A stretch of DNA of 64,000 bases from assembly GCF_017348835.2 (NCBI RefSeq), contig NZ_CP071375.1; one strand, written 5' to 3'. A model generated the notes under the pieces. That model saw only the letters and a program-made list of their open reading frames with translations. It was not told the DNA's origin and did not search any database. Both the position numbers and the translations under genes were made by a program. The stretch comes from Escherichia coli. GTDB lineage: Bacteria; Pseudomonadota; Gammaproteobacteria; Enterobacterales; Enterobacteriaceae. Numbering within the stretch: the stretch's first letter is position 1; every line of letters starts with the position of its first letter. Shown piece after piece: positions 44,600 through 62,399 of the stretch.

Positions 44600-45607
44600 A
44601 TGAAGATAATCTGCAGATTATTATTGGCGATGGCATGTTTGTGTCTGGCAAACATATCCTGGGCTACTGTTTGTGCAAATAGTACTGGCGTAGCAGAAGA
44701 TGAACACTATGATCTCTCAAATGTCTTTAATAGCACCAATAACCAGCCAGGGCAGATTGTTGTTTTACCTGAAAAATCCGGCTGGGTAGGTGTATCAGCA
44801 ATTTGTCCACCCGGCACGCTGGTGAATTATACATACCGTAGTTATGTCACCAACTTTATTGTTCAGGAAACTATCGATAATTATAAATATATGCAATTAA
44901 ATGATTATCTATTAGGTGCGATGAGTCTGGTTGATAGCGTGATGGATATTCAATTCCCCCCGCAAAATTATATTCGTATGGGAACAGATCCTAACGTTTC
45001 GCAAAACCTTCCGTTCGGGGTGATGGATTCTCGTTTGATATTTCGTTTAAAGGTTATTCGGCCCTTTATTAACATGGTGGAGATCCCCAGACAGGTGATG
45101 TTTACCGTGTATGTGACATCAACGCCTTACGATCCGTTGGTTACACCTGTTTATACCATTAGTTTTGGTGGCCGGGTTGAAGTACCGCAAAACTGCGAAT
45201 TAAATGCCGGGCAGATTGTTGAATTTGATTTTGGTGATATCGGCGCATCGTTATTTAGTGCGGCAGGGCCGGGTAATCGGCCTGCTGGTGTCATGCCGCA
45301 AACCAAGAGCATTGCGGTCAAATGTACGAATGTTGCTGCGCAGGCTTATTTAACAATGCGTCTGGAAGCCAGTGCCGTTTCTGGTCAGGCGATGGTGTCG
45401 GACAATCAGGATTTAGGTTTTATTGTCGCCGATCAGAACGATACGCCGATCACGCCTAACGATCTCAATAGCGTTATTCCTTTCCGTCTGGATGCAGCTG
45501 CGGCAGCCAATGTCACACTTCGCGCCTGGACTATCAGTATTACCGGTCAAAAACCGACCGAAGGGCCGTTTAGCGCGCTGGGGTATTTACGCGTCGATTA
45601 TCAATGA
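44600..45607 (+). CDS. sfmH: fimbrial adhesin-like protein
   Basis: 335 aa; synteny after usher. Confidence 0.85.
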   Translation: MKIICRLLLAMACLCLANISWATVCANSTGVAEDEHYDLSNVFNSTNNQPGQIVVLPEKSGWVGVSAICPPGTLVNYTYRSYVTNFIVQETIDNYKYMQLNDYLLGAMSLVDSVMDIQFPPQNYIRMGTDPNVSQNLPFGVMDSRLIFRLKVIRPFINMVEIPRQVMFTVYVTSTPYDPLVTPVYTISFGGRVEVPQNCELNAGQIVEFDFGDIGASLFSAAGPGNRPAGVMPQTKSIAVKCTNVAAQAYLTMRLEASAVSGQAMVSDNQDLGFIVADQNDTPITPNDLNSVIPFRLDAAAAANVTLRAWTISITGQKPTEGPFSALGYLRVDYQ

Positions 45608-52371: not shown

Positions 52372-53064
52372 TTAATTATGTCTCTTAAGGGTTTGCGACT
52401 GACTGATTAAGACCTTTCCAAAGACCATGAATCGGTGTTCGTTTTCGCTAGTAATTCCCCATTCACGGTAAATCTGGTTATCAGAAATCACCAGCAGTTT
52501 GTCAGGAATCATTTGAAGTCTTTTAACGTATATTTTGTCATCAAAACCAAAGACATATATACCATCACCATCAAACTGATTGATGCTGACATCAACGAAG
52601 ATGAGATCTCCTGGCTCAATGGTTGGACACATACTGTCCCCACGAACGTTGATAACTTTGATGTGATTGGCTGGTCGTCCGCCGAACATTGATACAGCAT
52701 TATCAGTTCTGTATTCGATGGCATGAATCACATCAATGACATCACCGCCCTGGATAAGGCCATTTCCCGCACTGGCACTGATATCCAGCATTTCAATACG
52801 GAACACATCCTTCACCTGCGCAACATCCTCATTATTACTGTTTTTATATACAGTATTACTTTTGTGGGCAGAGGTAAAGAGATCAGCAATATCAACACCT
52901 AAGCTCTTGGCAATATTACTCAGTGTTTGTTCGGTAAATTGTTTTTGCTTACCCGTTTCTAAGCGCGAGATGTTCGCCGCATCTACTCCTATTGCTTCAG
53001 CGAGATCGGCGATTTTCATGTTCTTCGCTTGGCGAAGTTGTCTGACTCGGTTTCCTATGTTCAT
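52372..53064 (-). CDS. cI: CI-type prophage repressor (XRE HTH plus S24 LexA-like peptidase domain)
   Basis: 230 aa; N-terminal HTH (MKIADLAEAIGVDAANISRLETGK); C-terminal GDSM ... K peptidase motif. Confidence 0.85.
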   Translation of the reverse strand: MNIGNRVRQLRQAKNMKIADLAEAIGVDAANISRLETGKQKQFTEQTLSNIAKSLGVDIADLFTSAHKSNTVYKNSNNEDVAQVKDVFRIEMLDISASAGNGLIQGGDVIDVIHAIEYRTDNAVSMFGGRPANHIKVINVRGDSMCPTIEPGDLIFVDVSINQFDGDGIYVFGFDDKIYVKRLQMIPDKLLVISDNQIYREWGITSENEHRFMVFGKVLISQSQTLKRHN

Positions 53065-53084
53065 GCGTTTATTACATTTCTTTA

Positions 53085-53147
53085 TTGCGTGATAAGCAAA
53101 TCAACTTGCGCAAAATAATTGCGTGAAATAACATGCATAACGCGCAA
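53085..53147. promoter_or_regulatory. OR operator region with divergent pRM/pR
   Basis: ttgcgtgataagcaa (53085-53099), ttgcgcaa core, atgcataacgcgcaa (53133-53147) between divergent cI and cro. Confidence 0.55.
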
Positions 53148-53161
53148 TATTTGGAGGGCAT

Positions 53162-53422
53162 ATGCAATCACCATTACGAAATGTGCGTAAGGCGCATGGT
53201 TTCACTTTGCAGCATGTTGCTGCGGGTGTTCAAGTCAATCCAGCGACGTTGAGTCGTATTGAGAGGCTGGAGCAGATTCCATCTATCGAGCTTGCAGAAC
53301 GTTTAGCCAATTTTTTTAAGGGTGAAGTCAGCGAAATGCAGATTCTTTATCCGGCACGTTTTCAATCTAGCCAAAACCAGAATGGGTTTAAACCACAGGA
53401 ACAGGAGGTGAACCGTGGGTAA
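53162..53422 (+). CDS. cro: Cro-like HTH regulator
   Basis: 86 aa; HTH (GFTLQHVAAGVQVNPATLSRIE); GGAGGG upstream; divergent from cI. Confidence 0.75.
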   Translation: MQSPLRNVRKAHGFTLQHVAAGVQVNPATLSRIERLEQIPSIELAERLANFFKGEVSEMQILYPARFQSSQNQNGFKPQEQEVNRG

Positions 53423-53966: not shown

Positions 53967-54301
53967 ACAGTTTAACAACACACTACCGTCGCTCGCAACT
54001 GATTGCGCTTCCTGTACCGGGTGGAAAAGCGAAGGTGGAGTATTGCTATGCAGTAAATGTACCAGGTGACAGGGAAATTGTAACCCACAGCTTTGCAGAG
54101 TGGGCTGTGGGTGATTTCAACCGGCAGAAGGAGACAGTCCTTTGCGACAAGTTAACCGCTGGTTCAAAGATCACTACGGAGTGCCCGTCAGAGTCATTCG
54201 TTGGGAGCCGGAAACACAACGGGTTATCTACCTCCGTGAAGGCTATGAGCATGAGTGCTTCAGCCCGCTCGAACAGTTTCGTCGTAAATTCAGGGAAATA
54301 G
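53963..54301 (+). CDS. hypothetical protein; 3' half may belong to an alternative frame (possible frameshift or two small coupled genes)
   Basis: 112 aa ORF; a second frame from TTG 54142 to stop 54318 gives protein-like ...[55 protein letters not shown]. Confidence 0.4.
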
Positions 54302-54310
54302 AGGTCGGTC

Positions 54311-55252
54311 ATGAGCACTAAATTAACCGGCTATGTATGGGATGGTTGCGCTGCGTCAGGCATGAAATTATCCAGCGTGGCAATTATGGCCCGCCTGGCT
54401 GATTTCAGTAATGACGAAGGTGTGTGCTGGCCATCAATTGAAACCATTGCCCGTCAGATTGGCGCGGGGATGAGTACCGTCAGAACGGCTATCGCACGGC
54501 TGGAAGCAGAAGGCTGGTTAACGCGTAAGGCGCGTCGCCAGGGTAACCGCAATGCGTCGAATGTTTATCAGCTTAACGTTGCGAAGCTTCAGGCAGCGGC
54601 ATTTTCTCAACTGTCAGATTCTGACCCGTCAAAATCTGACGCATCAAAATCTGACCCGTCAAAATTTGATGCGTCGAAATCTGGCAAAAAAGCGGGTTTT
54701 CACCCGTCAGAATCTGGCGGGGATCCGTCAGTAAAATCAAAACATGATCCGTCAGATAAAAAAACTTCTCGTCCGGACGCTTCGCAACCGGACACGCAGA
54801 AGGCTGAACAGGAGTTTTTAACTCGCCATCCTGATGCGGTTGTATTCAGCCCTAAAAAGCGCCAGTGGGGAACGCAGGATGATTTGACCTGCGCACAGTG
54901 GCTCTGGAAAAAAATCATCGCCCTGTACGAGCAGGCCGCCGAATGTGACGGCGAGGTGGTTCGTCCCAAAGAACCGAACTGGACAGCCTGGGCAAACGAA
55001 ATTCGCCTGATGTGTGTGCAGGATGGTCGTACTCACAAACAAATCTGCGAGATGTACAGCCGCGTCAGCCGCGATCCGTTCTGGTGCCGTAACGTGCTCA
55101 GCCCGTCGAAGCTGCGGGAAAAATGGGATGAGCTTTCCCTGCGCTTATCGCCGTCCGTCAGCACGTACACCGAAAAACGCGAAGACCCGTACTTCAAAGC
55201 CAGTTACGACAACGTGGACTACAGCCAGATCCCGGCAGGATTCAGGGGGTGA
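54311..55252 (+). CDS. replication initiator (O-like; N-terminal winged-helix; C-terminal region possibly YdaU/DUF1376-like) with internal origin iterons
   Basis: 313 aa; central repeat-encoded low-complexity region; position after cII. Confidence 0.65.
   Translation: MSTKLTGYVWDGCAASGMKLSSVAIMARLADFSNDEGVCWPSIETIARQIGAGMSTVRTAIARLEAEGWLTRKARRQGNRNASNVYQLNVAKLQAAAFSQLSDSDPSKSDASKSDPSKFDASKSGKKAGFHPSESGGDPSVKSKHDPSDKKTSRPDASQPDTQKAEQEFLTRHPDAVVFSPKKRQWGTQDDLTCAQWLWKKIIALYEQAAECDGEVVRPKEPNWTAWANEIRLMCVQDGRTHKQICEMYSRVSRDPFWCRNVLSPSKLREKWDELSLRLSPSVSTYTEKREDPYFKASYDNVDYSQIPAGFRG
54620..54762. repeat. putative replication origin: ~7 iteron copies (core CCGTCAG) followed by an A-rich tract
   Basis: tctgacccgtcaaaa / tctgacgcatcaaaa / tctgacccgtcaaaa / tttgatgcgtcgaaa tandem 15-mers plus cacccgtcagaatctgg, gatccgtcagtaaaatc, gatccgtcagataaaaaaa. 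Confidence 0.6.
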
Positions 55253-55254
55253 TC

Positions 55255-55743
55255 ATGAGTCTTTTGAATGACGTTCAGAAATTCATTGAAGCCCATCCGG
55301 GCTGTACTTCCGGAGACATTGCGGATGCTTTTGCAGGTTACTCACGGCAGCGCGTTCTGCAGTCAGCAAGCAAGTTACGTCAGAGTGGGCGTGTGGCTCA
55401 CCGTTGTGAAGGAGATACACACAGACATTTCCCGCGCCTGACTGAGAGAGCGCAGGATCCGGAACCACAACCAGTTCGTGAAACCAGACCTGTGCGCAAT
55501 TTCTATGTCGGCACTAACGACCCGCGGGTGATTTTGTGCCTGACCCGCCAGGCGGAAGAACTGGAGTCCAGGGGCTTATACCGTCGTGCTGCAACGGTGT
55601 GGATGGCGGCATTCCGTGAAAGCCACTCCCAGCAAGAGCGAAACAATTTTCTTGCGCGTCGTGAGCGGTGTTTACGGAAAAGCAGCAAGCGCGCTGTATC
55701 GGGTGAAGAGTGGTATCTGTCAGGGAATTACGTGGGGGCTTAA
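55255..55743 (+). CDS. hypothetical regulator, possibly PerC-family-like
   Basis: 162 aa from MSLLNDVQ; GGGGG 7 nt upstream; basic C-terminus with LYRRAATVWMAAF motif. Confidence 0.4.
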   Translation: MSLLNDVQKFIEAHPGCTSGDIADAFAGYSRQRVLQSASKLRQSGRVAHRCEGDTHRHFPRLTERAQDPEPQPVRETRPVRNFYVGTNDPRVILCLTRQAEELESRGLYRRAATVWMAAFRESHSQQERNNFLARRERCLRKSSKRAVSGEEWYLSGNYVGA

Positions 55744-56069
55744 TGACGACGTTAACTCAATGCCAGCAGCAGGTGCTGGATATGCTGATTTCTTACCAGA
55801 AAGAACGTGGCTTCCCGCCAACCAATCAGGAGGTGGCTACCATGCTGGGATACCGTTCAGTGAATGCAGCGGTGGAGCATCTTCGCGCACTGGAGAAAAA
55901 AGGCGTCATCACGATAAAGCGTGGCGTGGCCCGGGGCATCACGCTTCATACCGCGGTGAAGGACGACGACAGCGAGGTGGCCGGGATTATCCGCGCACTG
56001 CTTGCTGGTGAGGAAAACGCCAGGCTGCGTGCAACCCACTGGTTACATGAGAGGGGCCTGAAAGTATGA
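55743..56069 (+). CDS. LexA N-terminal DNA-binding-domain-only paralogue (no S24 peptidase domain)
   Basis: 108 aa MTTLTQCQQQVLDMLISYQKERGFPPTNQEVATMLGYRSVNAAVEHLRALEKKGVITIKRGVARGITL aligns along the whole LexA winged-helix domain ([68 protein letters not shown]). Confidence 0.7.
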   Translation: MTTLTQCQQQVLDMLISYQKERGFPPTNQEVATMLGYRSVNAAVEHLRALEKKGVITIKRGVARGITLHTAVKDDDSEVAGIIRALLAGEENARLRATHWLHERGLKV

Positions 56070-56455
56070 AGCTGATCCTGCCTTTTCCGCCCAGCGTGAA
56101 CACGTACTGGCGACACCCCAACAAAGGGGCGTTTGCTGGTAAGAGCCTGATAAGCGCGGCGGGGCGAAAATTCCAGAGCGCGGCGTGCGCAGCAATAGTT
56201 GAGCAGTTACGTCGTCTGCCGAAACCAACGTCGGCACCTGCTTCAGTGGAGATCGTGTTGTTTCCTCCGGATAACAGGATCCGCGATCTGGACAACTATA
56301 ACAAGGCGCTGTTTGACGCCCTGACCCACGCGGGGGTGTGGGAAGACGACAGTCAGGTGAAAAGAATGCTGGTGGAGTGGGGACCGGTTATCCCGGAAGG
56401 GAAGGTCGAGATCACTATCAGTAAGTACGAGAAAACGGCGGGTGCAGCTGCCTGA
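56066..56455 (+). CDS. rusA: Holliday junction resolvase RusA
   Basis: 129 aa; LPFPPSVNTYW ... DLDN motifs. Confidence 0.85.
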   Translation: MKLILPFPPSVNTYWRHPNKGAFAGKSLISAAGRKFQSAACAAIVEQLRRLPKPTSAPASVEIVLFPPDNRIRDLDNYNKALFDALTHAGVWEDDSQVKRMLVEWGPVIPEGKVEITISKYEKTAGAAA

Positions 56456-56474
56456 TCAAGAGGAGAAACGAAGT

Positions 56475-57284
56475 ATGAATAATCTGATGGTCATTGATGG
56501 TATTGAAGTTCGTCGTGATGCTTATGGGCGTTACAGCCTGAACGATCTGCATCGCGCAGCAGTAGCATCTGGTGCAAATGCCAGAACCAAGGAGCCAGGA
56601 AAGTTTCTTTCCAGCCAACAAACTGTTGAGCTTGTTCATGAATTAACCAACACCCAGAATTTGGGTGTTGACCCGGTGAGTGTGATTCATGGGGGAAATG
56701 AACGGGGAACGTATGTCTGTAAGGAACTGGTGTATGCCTATGCAATGTGGATCAGCCCGTCATTCCATCTGAAGGTGATCCGTACTTTCGATATGGTAAC
56801 CAGCGCGCCGGAAAAGTTATCCGGACAGGTTGCTGACAAGATGCAGGCTGGCGTGATTCTGCTGGACTTTATGCGCCGGGAGTTAAATCTGTCTAACTCA
56901 TCTGTGCTTGGGGCCTGTCAGAAACTCCAGGAGGCTGTTGGCTTACCGAATCTGGCACCGCGCTATGCCATTGATGCACCTGCTGACGCGCCTGATGGCT
57001 CAAGCCGCCCGACGCTGTCGCTGAGTGCACTGCTGAAGCAGTATGGTATCCGCCTGACGGCTAATCAGGCATATCACCAGATGGCGAAGCTGGGGATCGT
57101 TGAACAACGCGAACGATACAGCCGTACCGCGATTAACAACATCAAAAAATTCTGGTCGCTGACAGCGAAAGGTTGCATGTTCGGCAAGAACATCACCAGT
57201 CCCGCAAATCCGCGCGAGACGCAGCCGCATTTCTTCGAATCCCGATTCCCTGAGCTGTTAAAGCTGCTCGATACCGTTCATTGA
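56475..57284 (+). CDS. KilA-N domain protein (putative antirepressor-like)
   Basis: 269 aa from MNNLMVIDGIEVRRDAYGRYSLNDLHRAA; AGGAG upstream. Confidence 0.65.
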   Translation: MNNLMVIDGIEVRRDAYGRYSLNDLHRAAVASGANARTKEPGKFLSSQQTVELVHELTNTQNLGVDPVSVIHGGNERGTYVCKELVYAYAMWISPSFHLKVIRTFDMVTSAPEKLSGQVADKMQAGVILLDFMRRELNLSNSSVLGACQKLQEAVGLPNLAPRYAIDAPADAPDGSSRPTLSLSALLKQYGIRLTANQAYHQMAKLGIVEQRERYSRTAINNIKKFWSLTAKGCMFGKNITSPANPRETQPHFFESRFPELLKLLDTVH

Positions 57285-57285
57285 G

Positions 57286-58281
57286 GTGAACGTGAGAGCG
57301 CTACTGACCCCCGAGATTGCCCCGCGTATGGGGATCGTATTGTTCAGACCCGGTTCAGAGCTGATGCCCCTGTTTATGCAGGGGCGTGTCCTGCTGGAGC
57401 CTGAGCCGGAACGTTATTCATCTTTTGCCAGTGGTGCCGTTCCGGCTGCATCACAACCGCTGGCGGATGATCCTGCCGTTCGGGCCGTGTTCCGCAATGA
57501 GGCAGTGATCCGTCGTGCTGGTGGCGTGGAATGTCTTGAAAGCTGGTTACTTCGTGAAAAAGGCTGCCAGTGGCCTCATTCCGACTGGCACAGCGAGAAC
57601 ATGACCACAATGCGACACGCGCCGGGCGCAATCCGTCTGTGCTGGCACTGCGATAACCAACTGCGCGATCAGTTCACGGAACGGCTGGAATCAATGGCAA
57701 CGGATAACTGTGCCCGCTGGGTGTTGTCTGTTGTGCGTCGGGATCTCGGTTTTGATGACAGTCACGTTGTGACAATGCCGGAACTGTGCTGGTGGCTGAT
57801 TCGTAATGATCTGGCGGATACCTTACCGGAAAGTGCAGCCCGTAAGGCACTGAGATTACCGAAGCCTTTTGTGCCGTCTGTCACCCGGGAAAGTGACCTG
57901 GTGCCTTCGGTTCCTGCCACCAGCATCATCCAGAATAAAGCGAAAAAGGTGCTGGCGCTGAAAGTGGATCCGGAGTCGCCGGACTCTTTTATGTTACGCC
58001 CAAAACGTCGCCGCTGGGTTAATGAAAAGTACACGCGATGGGTTAAGACGCAGCCGTGCGCATGTTGTGGAAAACCTGCTGATGATCCCCACCACCTGAT
58101 AGGCCACGGTCAGGGTGGAATGGGGACAAAAGCGCATGACCTCTTTGTGTTGCCTTTGTGCAGAAAGCATCACGACGAGCTGCATGCGGATACTGTGGCA
58201 TTCGAAGAGAAGTATGGCTCCCAGCTGGAGCTGATATTTCGTTTTATCGATCGTGCGCTGGCGATTGGTGTGCTGGCCTGA
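57286..58281 (+). CDS. DUF968 (YdfU-like) protein with C-terminal Cys/His cluster
   Basis: 331 aa; [12 protein letters not shown] ... CRKHHDELH. Confidence 0.65.
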
Positions 58282-58298
58282 TTTTGTGGAGAAAGTTG

Positions 58299-58682
58299 AT
58301 GCGTGATATTCAGATGGTTCTTGAGCGTTGGGGAGCGTGGGCGGCTAATAATCATGAAGATGTGACTTGGTCGTCCATTGCCGCCGGTTTTAAGGGATTA
58401 ATTCCTTCAAAAGTAAAATCTCGCCCACAATGTTGTGACGATGACGCGATGATCATTTGCGGGTGCATGGCCCGTCTGAAAAAGAACAACAGCGACTTGC
58501 ACGATTTATTAGTAGATTATTATGTAGTCGGTATGACATTCATGTCACTGGCAGGTAAGCATTGCTGCTCTGATGGTTATATCGGGAAAAGGTTACAGAA
58601 GGCTGAGGGCATAATTGAAGGGATGTTAATGGCATTAGATATCCGGTTAGAGATGGATATCGTTGTTAATAACTCTAATTAA
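58299..58682 (+). CDS. quuD: late-gene antiterminator Q
   Basis: 127 aa from [18 protein letters not shown]; Cys-rich zinc-binding region. Confidence 0.8.
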
Positions 58683-58870
58683 TATGCCAATTGTTTACTA
58701 AAAATTATTAAAAATGGGGCGTTGCAACGCCCCCAAAAATAAAGGGTAATATATAACAGAAGGTTTATATAGTTAGAAGCAAGGTTGTGCTCCTAAAGGA
58801 AGTGGCTTGAGGGAGCCACTTATATGTTGGGGAGGCAAAGCCTCCCGCAACATATCTTTTAGTAATCAAA

Positions 58871-59953
58871 TTAGAACTGGTAAACCATACCTACAGCAAC
58901 GATATCATCGGTAGCAACGCCAGATGCTTTCGTGAAATCGCTCTTATCAATCAGGTTGATTTTGTAATCAACAAAAGTGGACATATTTTTGTTGAAGTAA
59001 TAGGTTGCACCTACATCAATATATTCAACCAGGTCCTGATCACCCCACGCACCCAAGTCTTTTCCTTTAGATTGCAGGTAAGCAACGGACGGACGCAGAC
59101 CGAAGTCGAACTGATATTGTGCAACTACTTCGAAGTTTTGTGCTTTGTTGGCAATATGGTTATTACCAAAAACAGTCATGTTCTGGGTTTCAGAATAGGT
59201 GGTAGCCAGATAGATGTTGTTCGCATCATATTTCAGACCAGCTGCCCATACTTCAGCATTTTGACCAGATGCATTCAGGCTGTTGTTACCGTAGATAACC
59301 TGATTATTAGTGCGGTCAGATTTAGCATAGGTTGCACCTACACCGAATCCTTCATACTCATACGTAGTGGAGAAACCGAAACCATCACCATTAGCTTCAG
59401 TTACGTCAGTGCGGTCATTTTTACCCTGATACTGAGCAGCAAAGTTCAGACCATCAACCAGACCAAAGAAGTCGTTGTTACGATAAGTTGCAACACCAGT
59501 GGTGCGACCAGTCATGAACACATCTGTTTGGGTCCAGGTATCGCCACCGAATTCTGGCAGAACGTCAGTCCACGCACCGATGTCATATGCTACACCGTAG
59601 TTACGGCCGTAATCGATTGAGCCGTAGTCCCCGAATTTCAGGCCTGCAAATGCAAGACGGGTTTTGTCTTTGGAGGAGCCTTGAGATTCAGCGCGGTTGC
59701 CTTTGAATTCATATTCCCACTGACCGAAACCAGTCAGTTGATCGTTGATTTGGGTTTCACCTTTGAAGCCAAGACGGGCATAAGTAGTATCACCATCATC
59801 TGCATCATTAGAGGAGAAGTAGTGCTTGGCATTAACTTTCCCATATAGATCCAGCTTGTTACTGTCTTTATTATAAATTTCAGCTGCCTGAGCAGACATC
59901 GCCATCAGTACTGATGCGGCTACAGCAGAAATTGCCACTGTTAATTTTTTCAT
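58871..59953 (-). CDS. nmpC: prophage-encoded outer membrane porin (OmpC/OmpF family), uninterrupted
   Basis: 360 aa; signal peptide; C-terminal ...VGMVYQF beta-barrel signature. Confidence 0.9.
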
Positions 59954-61743: not shown

Positions 61744-62037
61744 TTATTGTGAGCAATACACACGCGCTTCCAGCGGAGTATAAATGCCTAAAGTAATAAA
61801 ACCGAGCAATCCATTTACGAATGTTTGCTGGGTTTCTGTTTTAACAACATTTTCTGCGCCGCCACAAATTTTGGCTGCATCAACAGTTTTCTCCTGTCCA
61901 ATTCCCGAAACGAAGAAGTGATGGGTGATGGTTTCCTTTGGTGTTACTGCTGTCGGTTTGTTTCCAACAGTAAACGTCTGTTGAGCACATCCTGTAATAA
62001 GCATTGCCAGAGCGGCAGAAAACAACATTTTTTTCAT
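61744..62037 (-). CDS. borD: Bor-family lipoprotein
   Basis: 97 aa from MKKMLFSAALAMLITGC. Confidence 0.88.
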   Translation of the reverse strand: MKKMLFSAALAMLITGCAQQTFTVGNKPTAVTPKETITHHFFVSGIGQEKTVDAAKICGGAENVVKTETQQTFVNGLLGFITLGIYTPLEARVYCSQ

Positions 62038-62399
62038 CTTATTATCCTGCATTGTTAAAAACGGCAGAATCCTATGTGACAACAATTAAACGATAATTAA
62101 ATGGATTGATGAAAATTAAAACTATATAGGTGTACGCTCAGACTATTGGAGGAAGTTGGGGACACTCAGAATCCTGTGGAATGAAATAAACCGGTCTATC
62201 CGTCTATTACCCTTTTAGCTGCGCTGTATCGTCGCCGTATTCCCGCATTAACCATGACCGTAGCCCGACGGGGAATTCCTTCTGCGTGAGTGTGCGGGAA
62301 TAATCAAAAACGATGCACACCGGGTTTTACTGTGCTGACAGACGCAGGGTTACCCTCATAGTCGCTTTTCCGGTGCGATGGTGGAAGAAACCGGGATGT

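What the first reader, a model, noticed from the sequence alone, without database searches (positions are those of the whole stretch)
55743..56069. Prophage-encoded LexA DNA-binding domain without the autocleavage domain
The 108-aa product aligns along the whole LexA winged-helix domain (MTTLTQCQQQVLDMLISYQKERGFPPTNQEVATMLGYRSVNAAVEHLRALEKKGVITIKRGVARGITL versus LexA [68 protein letters not shown]) but ends after a ~35-residue tail with no S24 peptidase motifs. A non-cleavable LexA mimic could occupy SOS boxes or LexA-like phage operators, or form mixed dimers, decoupling genes from RecA-mediated derepression.
Basis: partly seen in the sequence, partly recalled or inferred. Interest (0 to 1): 0.6.

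Follow-up and report, generated by a model that had tools for sequence, protein, structure and literature searches.

The report
Phage LexA DNA-binding domain without protease
A prophage gene found in about 40% of E. coli genomes encodes only the DNA-binding head of the SOS repressor LexA plus a short helical tail, so it cannot be switched off by DNA damage; it most likely re-imposes LexA-type repression, but nobody has tested this.

Summary
Window 55743-56069 (+) is a real 108-aa gene in the early-right operon of a lambdoid prophage. Residues 1-68 are a full LexA winged helix: Pfam E 4e-19, about 50% identical to E. coli LexA, model 0.9 A from the LexA-DNA crystal structure. A floppy linker and a family-specific two-helix tail follow. 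There is no S24 protease and no cleavage region.

It is not a new discovery. It belongs to PHROG 362, which NCBI names "LexA family transcriptional regulator". It occurs in 2232 of 5426 complete E. coli genomes and in SfV, SfII, mEp460 and Stx2 phages. I found no functional study.

It is under strong purifying selection (pN/pS 0.09). It keeps four of LexA's five base-contacting residues.

In Klebsiella and Enterobacter prophages, homologues sit in cassettes headed by canonical SOS-box promoters, together with DinI or a phage RecA. E. coli-type phages carry strong SOS boxes nearby, including one inside this prophage's cI gene that is identical to the umuDC operator.

Best reading (about 0.45): a RecA-proof LexA surrogate that binds SOS boxes. 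Main rival (about 0.3): a phage-specific regulator like GIL01 gp6. Mixed dimers with LexA are not supported. Oligomeric state and DNA target remain untested.

The parts
55743..56069 (+). CDS of the 108-aa LexA-N-terminal-domain protein (PHROG 362; RefSeq name 'LexA family transcriptional regulator')
   Evidence: ORF. Pfam PF01726 E 3.8e-19. PHROG 362 matched over positions 1-106 of 106, E 5e-58. 100% identical annotated CDS in E. coli 05-3629. pN/pS 0.094.
55743..55946 (+). Residues 1-68: LexA-type winged helix-turn-helix (H6-22, H28-35, H40-52, strands 56-58 and 66-68)
   Evidence: AF2 model with pLDDT about 86 in this part. Foldseek hit to 3jso_B (LexA-DNA complex): rmsd 0.9 A, 68 columns, 50% identity. 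pN/pS 0.015.
55857..55898 (+). Residues 39-52: recognition helix SVNAAVEHLRALEK (LexA has [14 protein letters not shown]). S39, N41, A42 and E45 are kept; E44 is replaced by V.
   Evidence: Ungapped alignment to LexA. Contact residues from PMC3091678. Family counts: S39 131/131, N41 129, A42 113, position 45 is E in 81 and D in 31, position 44 is never E.
55947..55964 (+). Residues 69-74: flexible acidic linker (HTAVKD)
   Evidence: pLDDT below 50 at residues 71-73. Variable length in family alignments.
55965..56051 (+). Residues 75-103: family-specific helical hairpin (H75-88, H93-103) with conserved pattern LLRALxxGExxARxRAxxWL. Function unknown; a dimerisation or partner-binding module is suspected.
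   Evidence: AF2 pLDDT about 84. Conserved in homologues of 40-65% identity. Not homologous to LexA beyond LexA residue 74. No PDB relatives. pN/pS 0.195.
52836..52855 (.). Near-consensus SOS box TACTGTTTTTATATACAGTA inside the cI-like repressor gene (codons N-T-V-Y-K-N-S of the linker). It is a candidate phage-borne target for host LexA and for the LexA-domain protein. The link to the protein is inferred, not shown.
   Evidence: It is the only CTGT-N8-ACAG in the window. It has 2 mismatches to the 20-nt consensus, and no shuffle reached that. PWM score 26.7. The reverse complement is identical to the umuDC operator of K-12. It is kept in cI alleles of 93% identity and in a Salmonella cI of 77% DNA identity.
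53065..53161 (+). cI-cro intergenic region: the presumed pR/operator region that drives the rightward operon containing the gene (inferred from lambdoid gene order)
   Evidence: Divergent cI-like (52372-53064, -) and cro-like (53162-53422, +) genes. No + strand terminator-like site lies between 53200 and 57700. All genes from cro to Q are co-oriented and abutting or overlapping.
55652..55678 (+). Sequence equivalent to the putative dam promoter annotated in phage SfV (-35 TTGCGC at 55652-55657, -10 TACGGA at 55673-55678). In this window it lies directly upstream of the LexA-domain gene because dam is absent. It is a weak match and of uncertain function.
   Evidence: SfV record annotation. 96% identical alignment. 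Not picked up by the consensus promoter scan.

Best explanation
The gene encodes a RecA-insensitive surrogate of LexA. Its N-terminal 68 residues are a LexA-type winged helix that most likely recognises the CTGT half-sites of SOS boxes. It has no S24 protease, no cleavage site and no LexA dimerisation domain, so RecA* cannot inactivate it. It also does not end in the C-terminus that marks the natural LexA N-terminal cleavage fragment for proteolysis.

In this prophage the gene lies in the early-right (pR) operon between the PerC-like gene and RusA. It would therefore be made after induction or infection, which is when host LexA is being destroyed. It would then re-occupy LexA operators. These include host SOS promoters and phage-borne SOS boxes, such as the umuDC-identical box inside this prophage's cI gene.

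In Klebsiella and Enterobacter prophages the homologue is itself transcribed from an SOS-box promoter together with DinI or a phage RecA. That arrangement would give a negative-feedback module that damps or terminates SOS.

Shown here: domain identity, absence of the protease, conservation of contact residues, purifying selection, operon position, and the SOS-box and SOS-gene neighbourhoods. Inferred: binding to SOS boxes, repression, oligomeric state, timing and the biological benefit.
For: 1. Domain. The LexA winged helix is complete and close to E. coli LexA: Pfam E 3.8e-19, 1lea E 8e-16 with an ungapped alignment, and an AF2 model 0.9 A from the DNA-bound LexA chain 3jso_B at 50% identity.

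2. Contact residues. Of the five LexA base-contacting residues S39, N41, A42, E44 and E45 (PMC3091678), the window protein keeps four. Across 131 homologues S39 is invariant, N41 is kept in 129, A42 in 113, and position 45 is E or D in 112. GIL01 gp6 is a truncated LexA homologue with a different operator, and its recognition helix has diverged: K38 aligns with N41 here.

3. SOS-controlled cassettes. In three independent prophage architectures the homologue lies in a cassette that starts, after a terminator, with a canonical SOS-box promoter. The cassettes are dinI-orfA-gene (L009-L011), phage recA-orfA-gene (L019/L020) and orfA-gene (L018). All belong to PHROG 362.

4. SOS boxes near the gene. 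In 80 E. coli-type viral contigs (978 kb), 59 strong SOS boxes lie within 7 kb of the gene, against 0.1 expected by shuffling. The classes are cI-internal, the 5' end of a late methylase, and between RusA and a KilA-N gene. The window's box equals the umuDC operator.

5. Precedents. The S. aureus phi11 CI N-terminal cleavage fragment alone still represses unless ClpX removes it, and the same paper describes ClpXP degradation of the LexA N-terminal fragment as part of staphylococcal SOS induction (PMC10584840). Self-cleavage of E. coli LexA exposes degradation signals for Lon and ClpXP (bioRxiv 2020.07.07.191791). gp6, a 66-aa LexA head with no C-terminal domain, binds a palindrome at nanomolar concentrations.

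6. Selection. pN/pS is 0.015 on the winged helix.

7. Abundance. The gene is in 2232 of 5426 complete E. coli genomes.
Against: - No binding or expression data exist for any family member. Ten literature searches found nothing on its function.
- E44 is never kept in the family. E45 is L or T in the commonest Klebsiella variants, so specificity may have shifted.
- Overall identity to host LexA (about 50%) is similar to that of gp6 (44%), which recognises a different site.
- A linker-fused dimer AF2 model gave pTM 0.34 and lowered tail confidence. Tail-mediated dimerisation, which high-affinity binding to a palindrome would need, is therefore unsupported.
- 32 of 80 E. coli-type loci have no strong SOS box within 7 kb, and phage Kati has none in its entire genome. 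The Cronobacter loci (L012-L014) also have none in the 12 kb fetched. Phage-borne boxes are thus not an obligatory partner.
- The SOS boxes could simply reflect regulation by host LexA, which is common in temperate phages.
- Linkage between the cI box and the gene may be by descent, since they are only 3 kb apart.
Confidence: 0.45

Rival explanations
1. A phage-specific transcription factor of the GIL01 gp6 type. A captured LexA head has evolved its own operator and activates or represses one or a few phage promoters, with no action on SOS boxes.
For: gp6 shows that a truncated phage LexA homologue, 44% identical to host LexA, can recognise a different palindrome and activate a late promoter (PMC6182141). 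The systematic loss of E44 and the variation at E45 in some subfamilies would fit a shifted specificity. The conserved tail could contact RNA polymerase or another phage protein. The gene keeps a constant place in the PerC-(methylase)-gene-RusA-KilA-N/Rha-DUF968-Q module in Escherichia, Salmonella and Cronobacter.
Against: Four of five LexA contacts are kept, whereas the gp6 helix is remodelled. The conserved module contains no candidate dedicated operator: inverted-repeat scans found nothing operator-like and the gp6 motif is at or below chance. The module's genes overlap, which leaves no intergenic regulatory DNA. The only clear promoters next to homologues carry canonical SOS boxes. Late genes here are under a Q antiterminator.
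Confidence: 0.3
2. Not primarily a DNA-sequence-specific regulator. The winged helix and tail would act as a protein- or DNA-structure-binding accessory to neighbouring functions, such as RusA junction resolution, replication initiation or the adjacent orphan methyltransferases.
For: The gene is translationally coupled to RusA in Escherichia, Salmonella and Cronobacter, and often to an upstream DNA methyltransferase of varying family: Dam PF05869, C5 PF00145 or D12 PF02086. The tail is of unknown function.
Against: The strongest constraint falls on the DNA-recognition domain (pN/pS 0.015), including base-contacting residues. The partners are not constant: RusA is absent next to the gene in K. 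pneumoniae and K. michiganensis cassettes, and the methylase is absent in this window. The methylase slot behaves as a hot spot for insertion and deletion.
Confidence: 0.15
3. A dominant-negative LexA poison that forms mixed dimers with host LexA.
For: None beyond the shared N-terminal domain.
Against: By established knowledge LexA dimerises through its C-terminal domain. Homology of the family to LexA stops at LexA residue 74, and no S24 domain is present. The tail has no similarity to LexA or to anything in PDB.
Confidence: 0.03
4. A decaying remnant of a captured lexA gene with no function.
For: It lacks two thirds of LexA. Many frameshifted or fused copies exist in databases.
Against: pN/pS is 0.094 over 52 alleles. 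Length and tail are conserved across at least eight genera. The gene is present in viable isolated phages including SfV, SfII, mEp460, cdtI and Stx2 phages.
Confidence: 0.02

Closest known systems
Host LexA repressor (E. coli LexA; PDB 1lea, 3jso)
   Same: The winged-helix DNA-binding domain is complete, about 50% identical and superposes at 0.9 A on the DNA-bound structure. S39, N41, A42 and E45 are conserved, as are K53, G54, R64, G65 and I66.
   Different: There is no cleavage-site region, S24 serine protease or dimerisation domain. E44 is replaced. A 35-40 residue helical hairpin sits in place of the C-terminal domain. The gene is phage-encoded in a lytic operon. It cannot respond to RecA*.
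GIL01 gp6 (Bacillus thuringiensis tectivirus), a truncated LexA homologue that activates late promoter P3 (PMC6182141)
   Same: [quoted passage not shown] Both are made from an early operon after SOS induction. gp6 shows that such a head alone can bind a palindrome and regulate transcription.
   Different: BLASTP finds no alignment between the two. gp6 is 66 aa with no tail. Its recognition helix is remodelled, with K38 where this protein keeps LexA's N41. Its operator GaCACAnnTGTGaC is not an SOS box and is not enriched in the window. It is an activator in a Gram-positive tectivirus, whereas this family is in enterobacterial lambdoid phages and keeps the SOS-box contacts.
The natural LexA N-terminal cleavage fragment (LexA 1-84) and phage CI N-terminal fragments
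   Same: All are a DNA-binding head separated from its dimerisation/protease domain. The phi11 CI fragment alone still represses unless ClpX removes it, and cleaved LexA is cleared by Lon/ClpXP (PMC10584840; bioRxiv 2020.07.07.191791).
   Different: This protein is genetically encoded rather than produced by cleavage. It ends in a conserved helical hairpin (...WLHERGLKV) rather than at the cleavage site. Its stability is untested.
DinI and other phage- or plasmid-borne SOS modulators (DinI, PsiB, GIL01 gp7)
   Same: All are mobile-element genes that tune the host SOS response. DinI is encoded in the same SOS-box-driven cassette as the Klebsiella homologue.
   Different: By established knowledge DinI and PsiB act on RecA filaments, and gp7 acts on LexA protein. 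This protein would act at the operator DNA itself.
BlaI/MecI-type repressors (winged helix plus C-terminal helical dimerisation domain)
   Same: Overall architecture. There are weak full-length Foldseek matches to Rv1846c (2g9w) and MecI (1okr, 2d45).
   Different: rmsd is 7-11 A and identity 13-27%. The winged helix here is of the LexA type. Dimerisation of the tail is not supported by the fused-dimer model.

Membership tests
LexA repressor proper (NCBIfam TIGR00498; MEROPS S24) | N-terminal LexA winged-helix DNA-binding domain | tested here: met
   PF01726 matched 1-65 of 65, E 3.8e-19. Foldseek to 3jso_B at 0.9 A.
LexA repressor proper (NCBIfam TIGR00498; MEROPS S24) | C-terminal S24 peptidase domain with the Ser119/Lys156 dyad | tested here: not met
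   No Peptidase_S24 hit. The protein ends at residue 108. HHalign to a LexA profile stops at LexA residue 74.
LexA repressor proper (NCBIfam TIGR00498; MEROPS S24) | Ala84-Gly85 cleavage-site region | tested here: not met
   An A88-G89 dipeptide exists, but it lies at the turn of a predicted helical hairpin. The region is not aligned to LexA by profile-profile comparison.
LexA repressor proper (NCBIfam TIGR00498; MEROPS S24) | Score above the curated whole-protein cutoff | tested here: not met
   67.4 bits against a cutoff of 110.95; only model positions 1-91 of 203 matched.
LexA repressor proper (NCBIfam TIGR00498; MEROPS S24) | Binds CTGT-N8-ACAG SOS boxes and represses | not testable with these tools
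   Only indirect evidence: 4 of 5 contact residues kept and SOS-box neighbourhoods.
PHROG 362 / RefSeq 'LexA family transcriptional regulator' (short prophage LexA-head proteins) | Full-length match to the family profile (about 106 aa: winged helix plus conserved C-terminal hairpin) | tested here: met
   phrog_362 matched 1-108 to 1-106 of 106, E 5.3e-58. Identical RefSeq protein WP_052892386.1. Tail motif conserved in homologues of 40-65% identity.
PHROG 362 / RefSeq 'LexA family transcriptional regulator' (short prophage LexA-head proteins) | Location in the region between replication genes and Q of enterobacterial lambdoid prophages, usually next to RusA and/or DUF968 | tested here: met
   Window. 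SfV, SfII, mEp460 and Stx2a_1447. Cronobacter, Salmonella, Klebsiella and Enterobacter.
GIL01 gp6-type truncated LexA activators | Detectable sequence relationship to gp6 | tested here: not met
   BLASTP finds no alignment at E <= 100. The two share only the Pfam domain.
GIL01 gp6-type truncated LexA activators | Lys38 in the recognition helix and the operator GaCACAnnTGTGaC | tested here: not met
   gp6 K38 aligns with N41, the LexA residue. The motif occurs twice with 2 mismatches against 4 expected by chance.
GIL01 gp6-type truncated LexA activators | Activates a late promoter | not testable with these tools
   No expression or binding data. Late genes here have a Q antiterminator.

The most novel reading that the evidence does not exclude
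Enterobacterial temperate phages, including Stx2 phages, carry a RecA-proof LexA surrogate that binds SOS boxes and shuts the SOS regulon down again once the phage is committed to lysis. In Klebsiella it would do so as part of a mobile, self-limiting SOS-control cassette with DinI or RecA. That would affect host mutagenesis, the induction of co-resident prophages and colicins, and possibly cI expression through the SOS box embedded in the repressor gene.
Probability: 0.4. Interest if true: 0.7.

Novelty: new variant of a known kind. Interest (0 to 1): 0.5.

Why it matters
The SOS response controls prophage and Shiga-toxin induction, mutagenesis and antibiotic tolerance. A phage-encoded LexA head that RecA cannot inactivate would be a direct, operator-level way for a mobile element to override that circuit. 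The gene is present in 41% of complete E. coli genomes and in common Klebsiella prophages.

If the protein binds SOS boxes, it would change how antibiotic-induced SOS, Stx production and prophage-prophage competition are modelled in these pathogens. It would also be a natural, compact, uncleavable SOS repressor.

If it instead has its own operator, it would be the Gram-negative counterpart of GIL01 gp6. Either outcome can be reached with simple reporter and EMSA experiments.

Tried and rejected
1. Tail as a relic of the LexA cleavage region. MAFFT placed 'LLAGEE' under LexA 'VAAGEP' and TIGR00498 matched to position 91. However, the profile-profile alignment stops at LexA residue 74 and the tail is predicted helical. 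Rejected.

2. Tail-mediated homodimer. I ran AF2 on a (GGGGS)5-linked tandem with a paired 27-sequence alignment. It gave pTM 0.34, and tail pLDDT fell from about 84 to about 70. This gives no support but is inconclusive, because no multimer model or coordinates were available.

3. Relatives of the tail in PDB and in Pfam, NCBIfam and PADLOC. Nothing meaningful; the PADLOC CARF hit is a generic winged helix.

4. A dedicated operator in the conserved module. The inverted-repeat scan of 54300-58900 found nothing operator-like. The gp6 operator motif is at or below chance.

5. Obligatory pairing with phage-borne SOS boxes. Rejected: phage Kati has the gene and no SOS box in its 46 kb, and 32 of 80 viral contigs have none within 7 kb.

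6. Literature. Ten searches covered SfV orf42, SfII, LexA-like and truncated LexA, PF01726, and cohE/e14. None found a functional study of this family. The LexA-DNA structure paper was not held in the library.

7. A strong sigma-70 promoter at the cI-internal SOS box. None was found by the consensus scan. Only a weak TTTACC-17-TACTGT arrangement is visible by eye, which resembles the umuDC geometry.
Full report
**Observation**

Its ATG overlaps the stop of the upstream PerC-like gene (55249-55743). Its stop overlaps the ATG of RusA (56066-56455).

- Pfam matches LexA_DNA_bind over the whole model (residues 1-65, E 3.8e-19) and finds no S24 peptidase.
- NCBIfam's lexA model matches only positions 1-91 of 203 and scores 67 bits against a cutoff of 111.
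- The best solved relative is the E. coli LexA DNA-binding domain (1lea, E 8e-16, ungapped 2-69).

The tail is 39-40 residues rather than about 35.

**Context**

The window is an E. coli chromosome carrying a lambdoid prophage next to a tRNA-Arg gene; RefSeq names the integrase intD. An identical copy is annotated in strain 05-3629. The gene order is:

- cI-like S24 repressor (52372-53064, minus strand)
- cro-like gene
- cII-like/YmfL
- O-like replication protein
- PerC-like YfdN
- the LexA-head gene
- RusA
- KilA-N protein
- DUF968/HNH
- Q
- a porin gene on the minus strand (RefSeq: ompC), followed by the lysis genes

All rightward genes abut or overlap, and no + strand terminator-like site lies between cro and DUF968. 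The gene therefore belongs to the early-right operon and should be expressed after induction or infection. This is an inference from lambdoid organisation.

Most related phages carry a dam gene between the PerC-like gene and this gene. Here dam is precisely absent, and the gene's ATG sits at the same TAATGA junction.

**It is a known, very common, uncharacterised family**

- The protein matches PHROG 362 ('transcriptional repressor') end to end, E 5e-58.
- The DNA is found at 90% identity or more in 2232 of 5426 complete E. coli genomes.
- It is found in 51 phage records, including SfV (orf42), SfII, mEp460, cdtI and Stx2a/Stx2c/Stx2k phages. There it is variously labelled 'LexA DNA binding domain protein', 'LexA-like protein', 'repressor, lexA family' or, wrongly, 'SOS-response repressor and protease LexA'.
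- Profile searches recover full-length homologues of 105-135 aa in Escherichia, Salmonella, Citrobacter, Cronobacter, Klebsiella, Enterobacter, Kosakonia, Atlantibacter and Hafnia.
- Ten literature searches found no functional work on it.

**Anatomy**

An AlphaFold2 model (mean pLDDT 81) shows four parts:

- the LexA winged helix (H6-22, H28-35, H40-52, strands 56-58 and 66-68)
- a low-confidence linker (residues 69-74)
- a two-helix hairpin (75-88 and 93-103)
- pTM is only 0.54, which indicates that the hairpin is not confidently docked on the head

The head superposes on the DNA-bound LexA chain 3jso_B at 0.9 A over 68 columns with 50% identity.

A profile-profile comparison of the family with LexA ends at LexA residue 74. 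The tail is therefore not derived from the LexA cleavage region or catalytic domain, and it has no relatives in PDB. Its pattern (LLRALxxGExxARxRAxxWL) is conserved down to 40% identity.

Selection is strongly purifying. Over 52 DNA alleles pN/pS is 0.094 overall, 0.015 for the head and 0.195 for the tail. This excludes a decaying remnant.

**What it probably binds**

The LexA residues reported to contact DNA are S39, N41, A42, E44 and E45 in helix III (PMC3091678). Because the alignment is ungapped, numbering is the same. The window protein has S39, N41, A42, V44 and E45.

In 131 full-length homologues the counts are:

| Position | Residues in the family |
|---|---|
| 39 | S in 131/131 |
| 41 | N in 129 |
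| 42 | A in 113 |
| 45 | E in 81, D in 31 |
| 44 | never E |

K53, G54, R64, G65 and I66 are also nearly invariant.

The only characterised phage LexA head, GIL01 gp6, has a remodelled helix, with K38 where LexA and this protein have Asn. It binds a non-SOS palindrome. The conserved contacts favour recognition of CTGT-type half-sites. The loss of E44, and the L or T at position 45 in some Klebsiella variants, leave room for a shifted specificity.

**Comparative genomics links the family to the SOS system**

In Klebsiella and Enterobacter prophages the homologue (same PHROG) lies in a small cassette of three genes: orfA (phrog_1813), the LexA-head gene and orfB (phrog_1212). This cassette is headed, directly after a terminator, by a promoter overlapped by a canonical SOS box. 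Three different architectures were found:

- SOS box, then dinI, then the cassette (L009-L011)
- SOS box, then a phage recA, then the cassette (L019/L020)
- SOS box, then the cassette directly (L018)

These are LexA-controlled units that pair the protein with known SOS modulators.

In 80 E. coli-type viral contigs (978 kb) there are 59 strong SOS boxes within 7 kb of the gene, against 0.1 expected from shuffles. They fall into a few classes:

- one inside the cI gene
- one at the 5' end of a late-region DNA methylase; in Stx2a_1447 this lies 1.4 kb upstream of stx2A
- one between RusA and a KilA-N gene

The window carries the cI-internal box (52836-52855). It is the only CTGT-N8-ACAG in 64 kb. 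Its reverse complement is identical to the umuDC operator of K-12. The box is retained at the same linker codons in a Salmonella cI of only 77% DNA identity.

The association is not obligatory. Phage Kati has the gene but no SOS box anywhere in its genome, and 32 of 80 contigs have none nearby. If the protein binds SOS boxes, its main targets would be host operators or those of other elements.

**Mechanism proposed (confidence about 0.45)**

The proposal is a RecA-proof LexA surrogate. After DNA damage, LexA and CI are cleaved, the pR operon fires, and the protein accumulates. It then re-occupies LexA operators despite continuing RecA* activity.

In Klebsiella-type cassettes the protein is itself SOS-induced and would feed back on its own promoter alongside DinI.

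Precedents make the DNA-binding step plausible:

- The phi11 CI N-terminal fragment alone retains repressor function unless ClpX removes it, and cleaved LexA fragments are cleared by Lon/ClpXP (PMC10584840; bioRxiv 2020.07.07.191791).
- gp6, a bare LexA head, binds a palindrome at nanomolar concentrations.

Binding, repression, oligomeric state and physiological benefit are not shown. A linker-fused dimer model did not give a confident dimer (pTM 0.34).

**Rivals**

- A gp6-like phage-specific regulator with its own operator (about 0.3). This is supported by the gp6 precedent and the E44/E45 changes. It is weakened by the conserved contacts and by the absence of any candidate operator in the conserved module.
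- An accessory protein to RusA, methylase or replication functions (about 0.15). This is weakened by inconsistent neighbours and by the strongest selection falling on the DNA-reading head.
- Mixed dimers with LexA (about 0.03). No LexA-like C-terminal domain is present.
- A functionless remnant (about 0.02). Refuted by the selection analysis.

**Comparison with known systems**

It works most like LexA itself minus its sensor half. Its closest characterised analogue is GIL01 gp6. It is not a member of the LexA equivalog: protease, cleavage site and score cutoff are all not met. It is not a member of the gp6 family: there is no alignment, a different helix and a different operator. It is a member of PHROG 362.

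I rate it a new variant of a known kind. It is a phage-encoded protease-less LexA homologue, distinguished by retained SOS-box contacts, a conserved helical tail and, in some hosts, SOS-box-driven cassettes with DinI or RecA.

Interest is moderate (0.5). The gene's existence is already annotated and the mechanism is inferred, but the family is extremely common in E. coli, Shigella, Salmonella and Klebsiella prophages, including Stx phages. The hypothesis can be tested directly.

Noticed in passing
window 52836-52855 (inside cI-like gene 52372-53064, minus strand): A near-consensus SOS box is embedded in the linker-coding part of the prophage repressor gene. Its reverse complement is identical to the E. 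coli umuDC operator. It is kept in cI alleles of 93% identity (SfII, Stx2a_1447, mEp460) and in a Salmonella cI of 77% DNA identity. This cI allele occurs in 1039 of 5426 E. coli genomes. On the cI-sense strand a weak TTTACC-17-TACTGT arrangement mimics the umuDC promoter geometry, so an SOS-inducible internal transcript encoding a CI C-terminal domain without its DNA-binding domain (from Met92) is conceivable. The consensus scan found no strong promoter.
   Followed up: partly
L002 25051-25070 (SfV), L006 14741-14760 (mEp460), L005 15916-15935 (Stx2a_1447), L007 17091-17110 (Stx2c_EH0430): A strong SOS box (TACTGTAAAAATAAACAGTG or a variant) sits at the annotated 5' end of a late-region DNA methylase gene (SfV orf48). 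In Stx2a_1447 this is about 1.4 kb upstream of stx2A. It was found in 26 of 80 related viral contigs. It is absent from this window.
   Followed up: partly
L050 7765-7784 (also L038, L055, L066, L068): In some E. coli-type phages a 150-bp intergenic region between RusA and a KilA-N-domain gene carries an SOS box (TACTGTATTTATGAACAGTG). This suggests a LexA-controlled KilA-N (antirepressor-like) gene two genes downstream of the LexA-head gene. In the window the KilA-N gene overlaps RusA and has no such box.
   Followed up: partly
L009 5385-6593; L019 3536-5593; L018 4560-5608: Klebsiella and Enterobacter prophages carry an SOS-box-driven cassette in which the LexA-head homologue is flanked by two conserved small ORFs of unknown function: orfA of about 80 aa (phrog_1813) and orfB of 67 aa (phrog_1212). 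The cassette is preceded by DinI or by a full-length phage RecA.
   Followed up: partly
L009 6001-6080 (Klebsiella homologue N-terminus): The 25-residue N-terminal extension of the 130-aa Klebsiella homologues lies outside the PHROG profile, is not conserved in sequence, and contains a terminator-like hairpin with a U tract (6034-6066). A TTG at about 6070 would give a protein with the family's usual N-terminus, so the annotated start may be wrong or an attenuator may be present.
   Followed up: no
window 55740-55746 versus L002 20492-21148: The dam methyltransferase present in most relatives is precisely missing here. The LexA-head ATG occupies the same TAATGA stop/start junction that dam uses in SfV. 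In other genera the same slot holds unrelated methyltransferases (Dam PF05869, C5 PF00145, D12 PF02086), so it behaves as a cassette hot spot.
   Followed up: partly
proteins P0131, P0153, P0161 (representative library): Single polypeptides of 141-164 aa contain two tandem LexA-type winged helices and no S24 domain. They would be covalent 'pseudo-dimers' of the LexA head, another protease-free way to read a palindromic operator.
   Followed up: no
window 58871-59953 (minus strand) and about 61745-62038: The prophage carries a gene that RefSeq names porin OmpC, between Q and the lysis genes, and an iss serum-survival lipoprotein gene. These look like cargo genes unrelated to the finding.
   Followed up: no
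window 44665-44684: A weak SOS-like sequence, TACTGTTTGTGCAAATAGTA (PWM 15, 6 mismatches to consensus), lies in the fimbrial (sfm/fim) region outside the prophage. It is within the range expected by chance.
   Followed up: no
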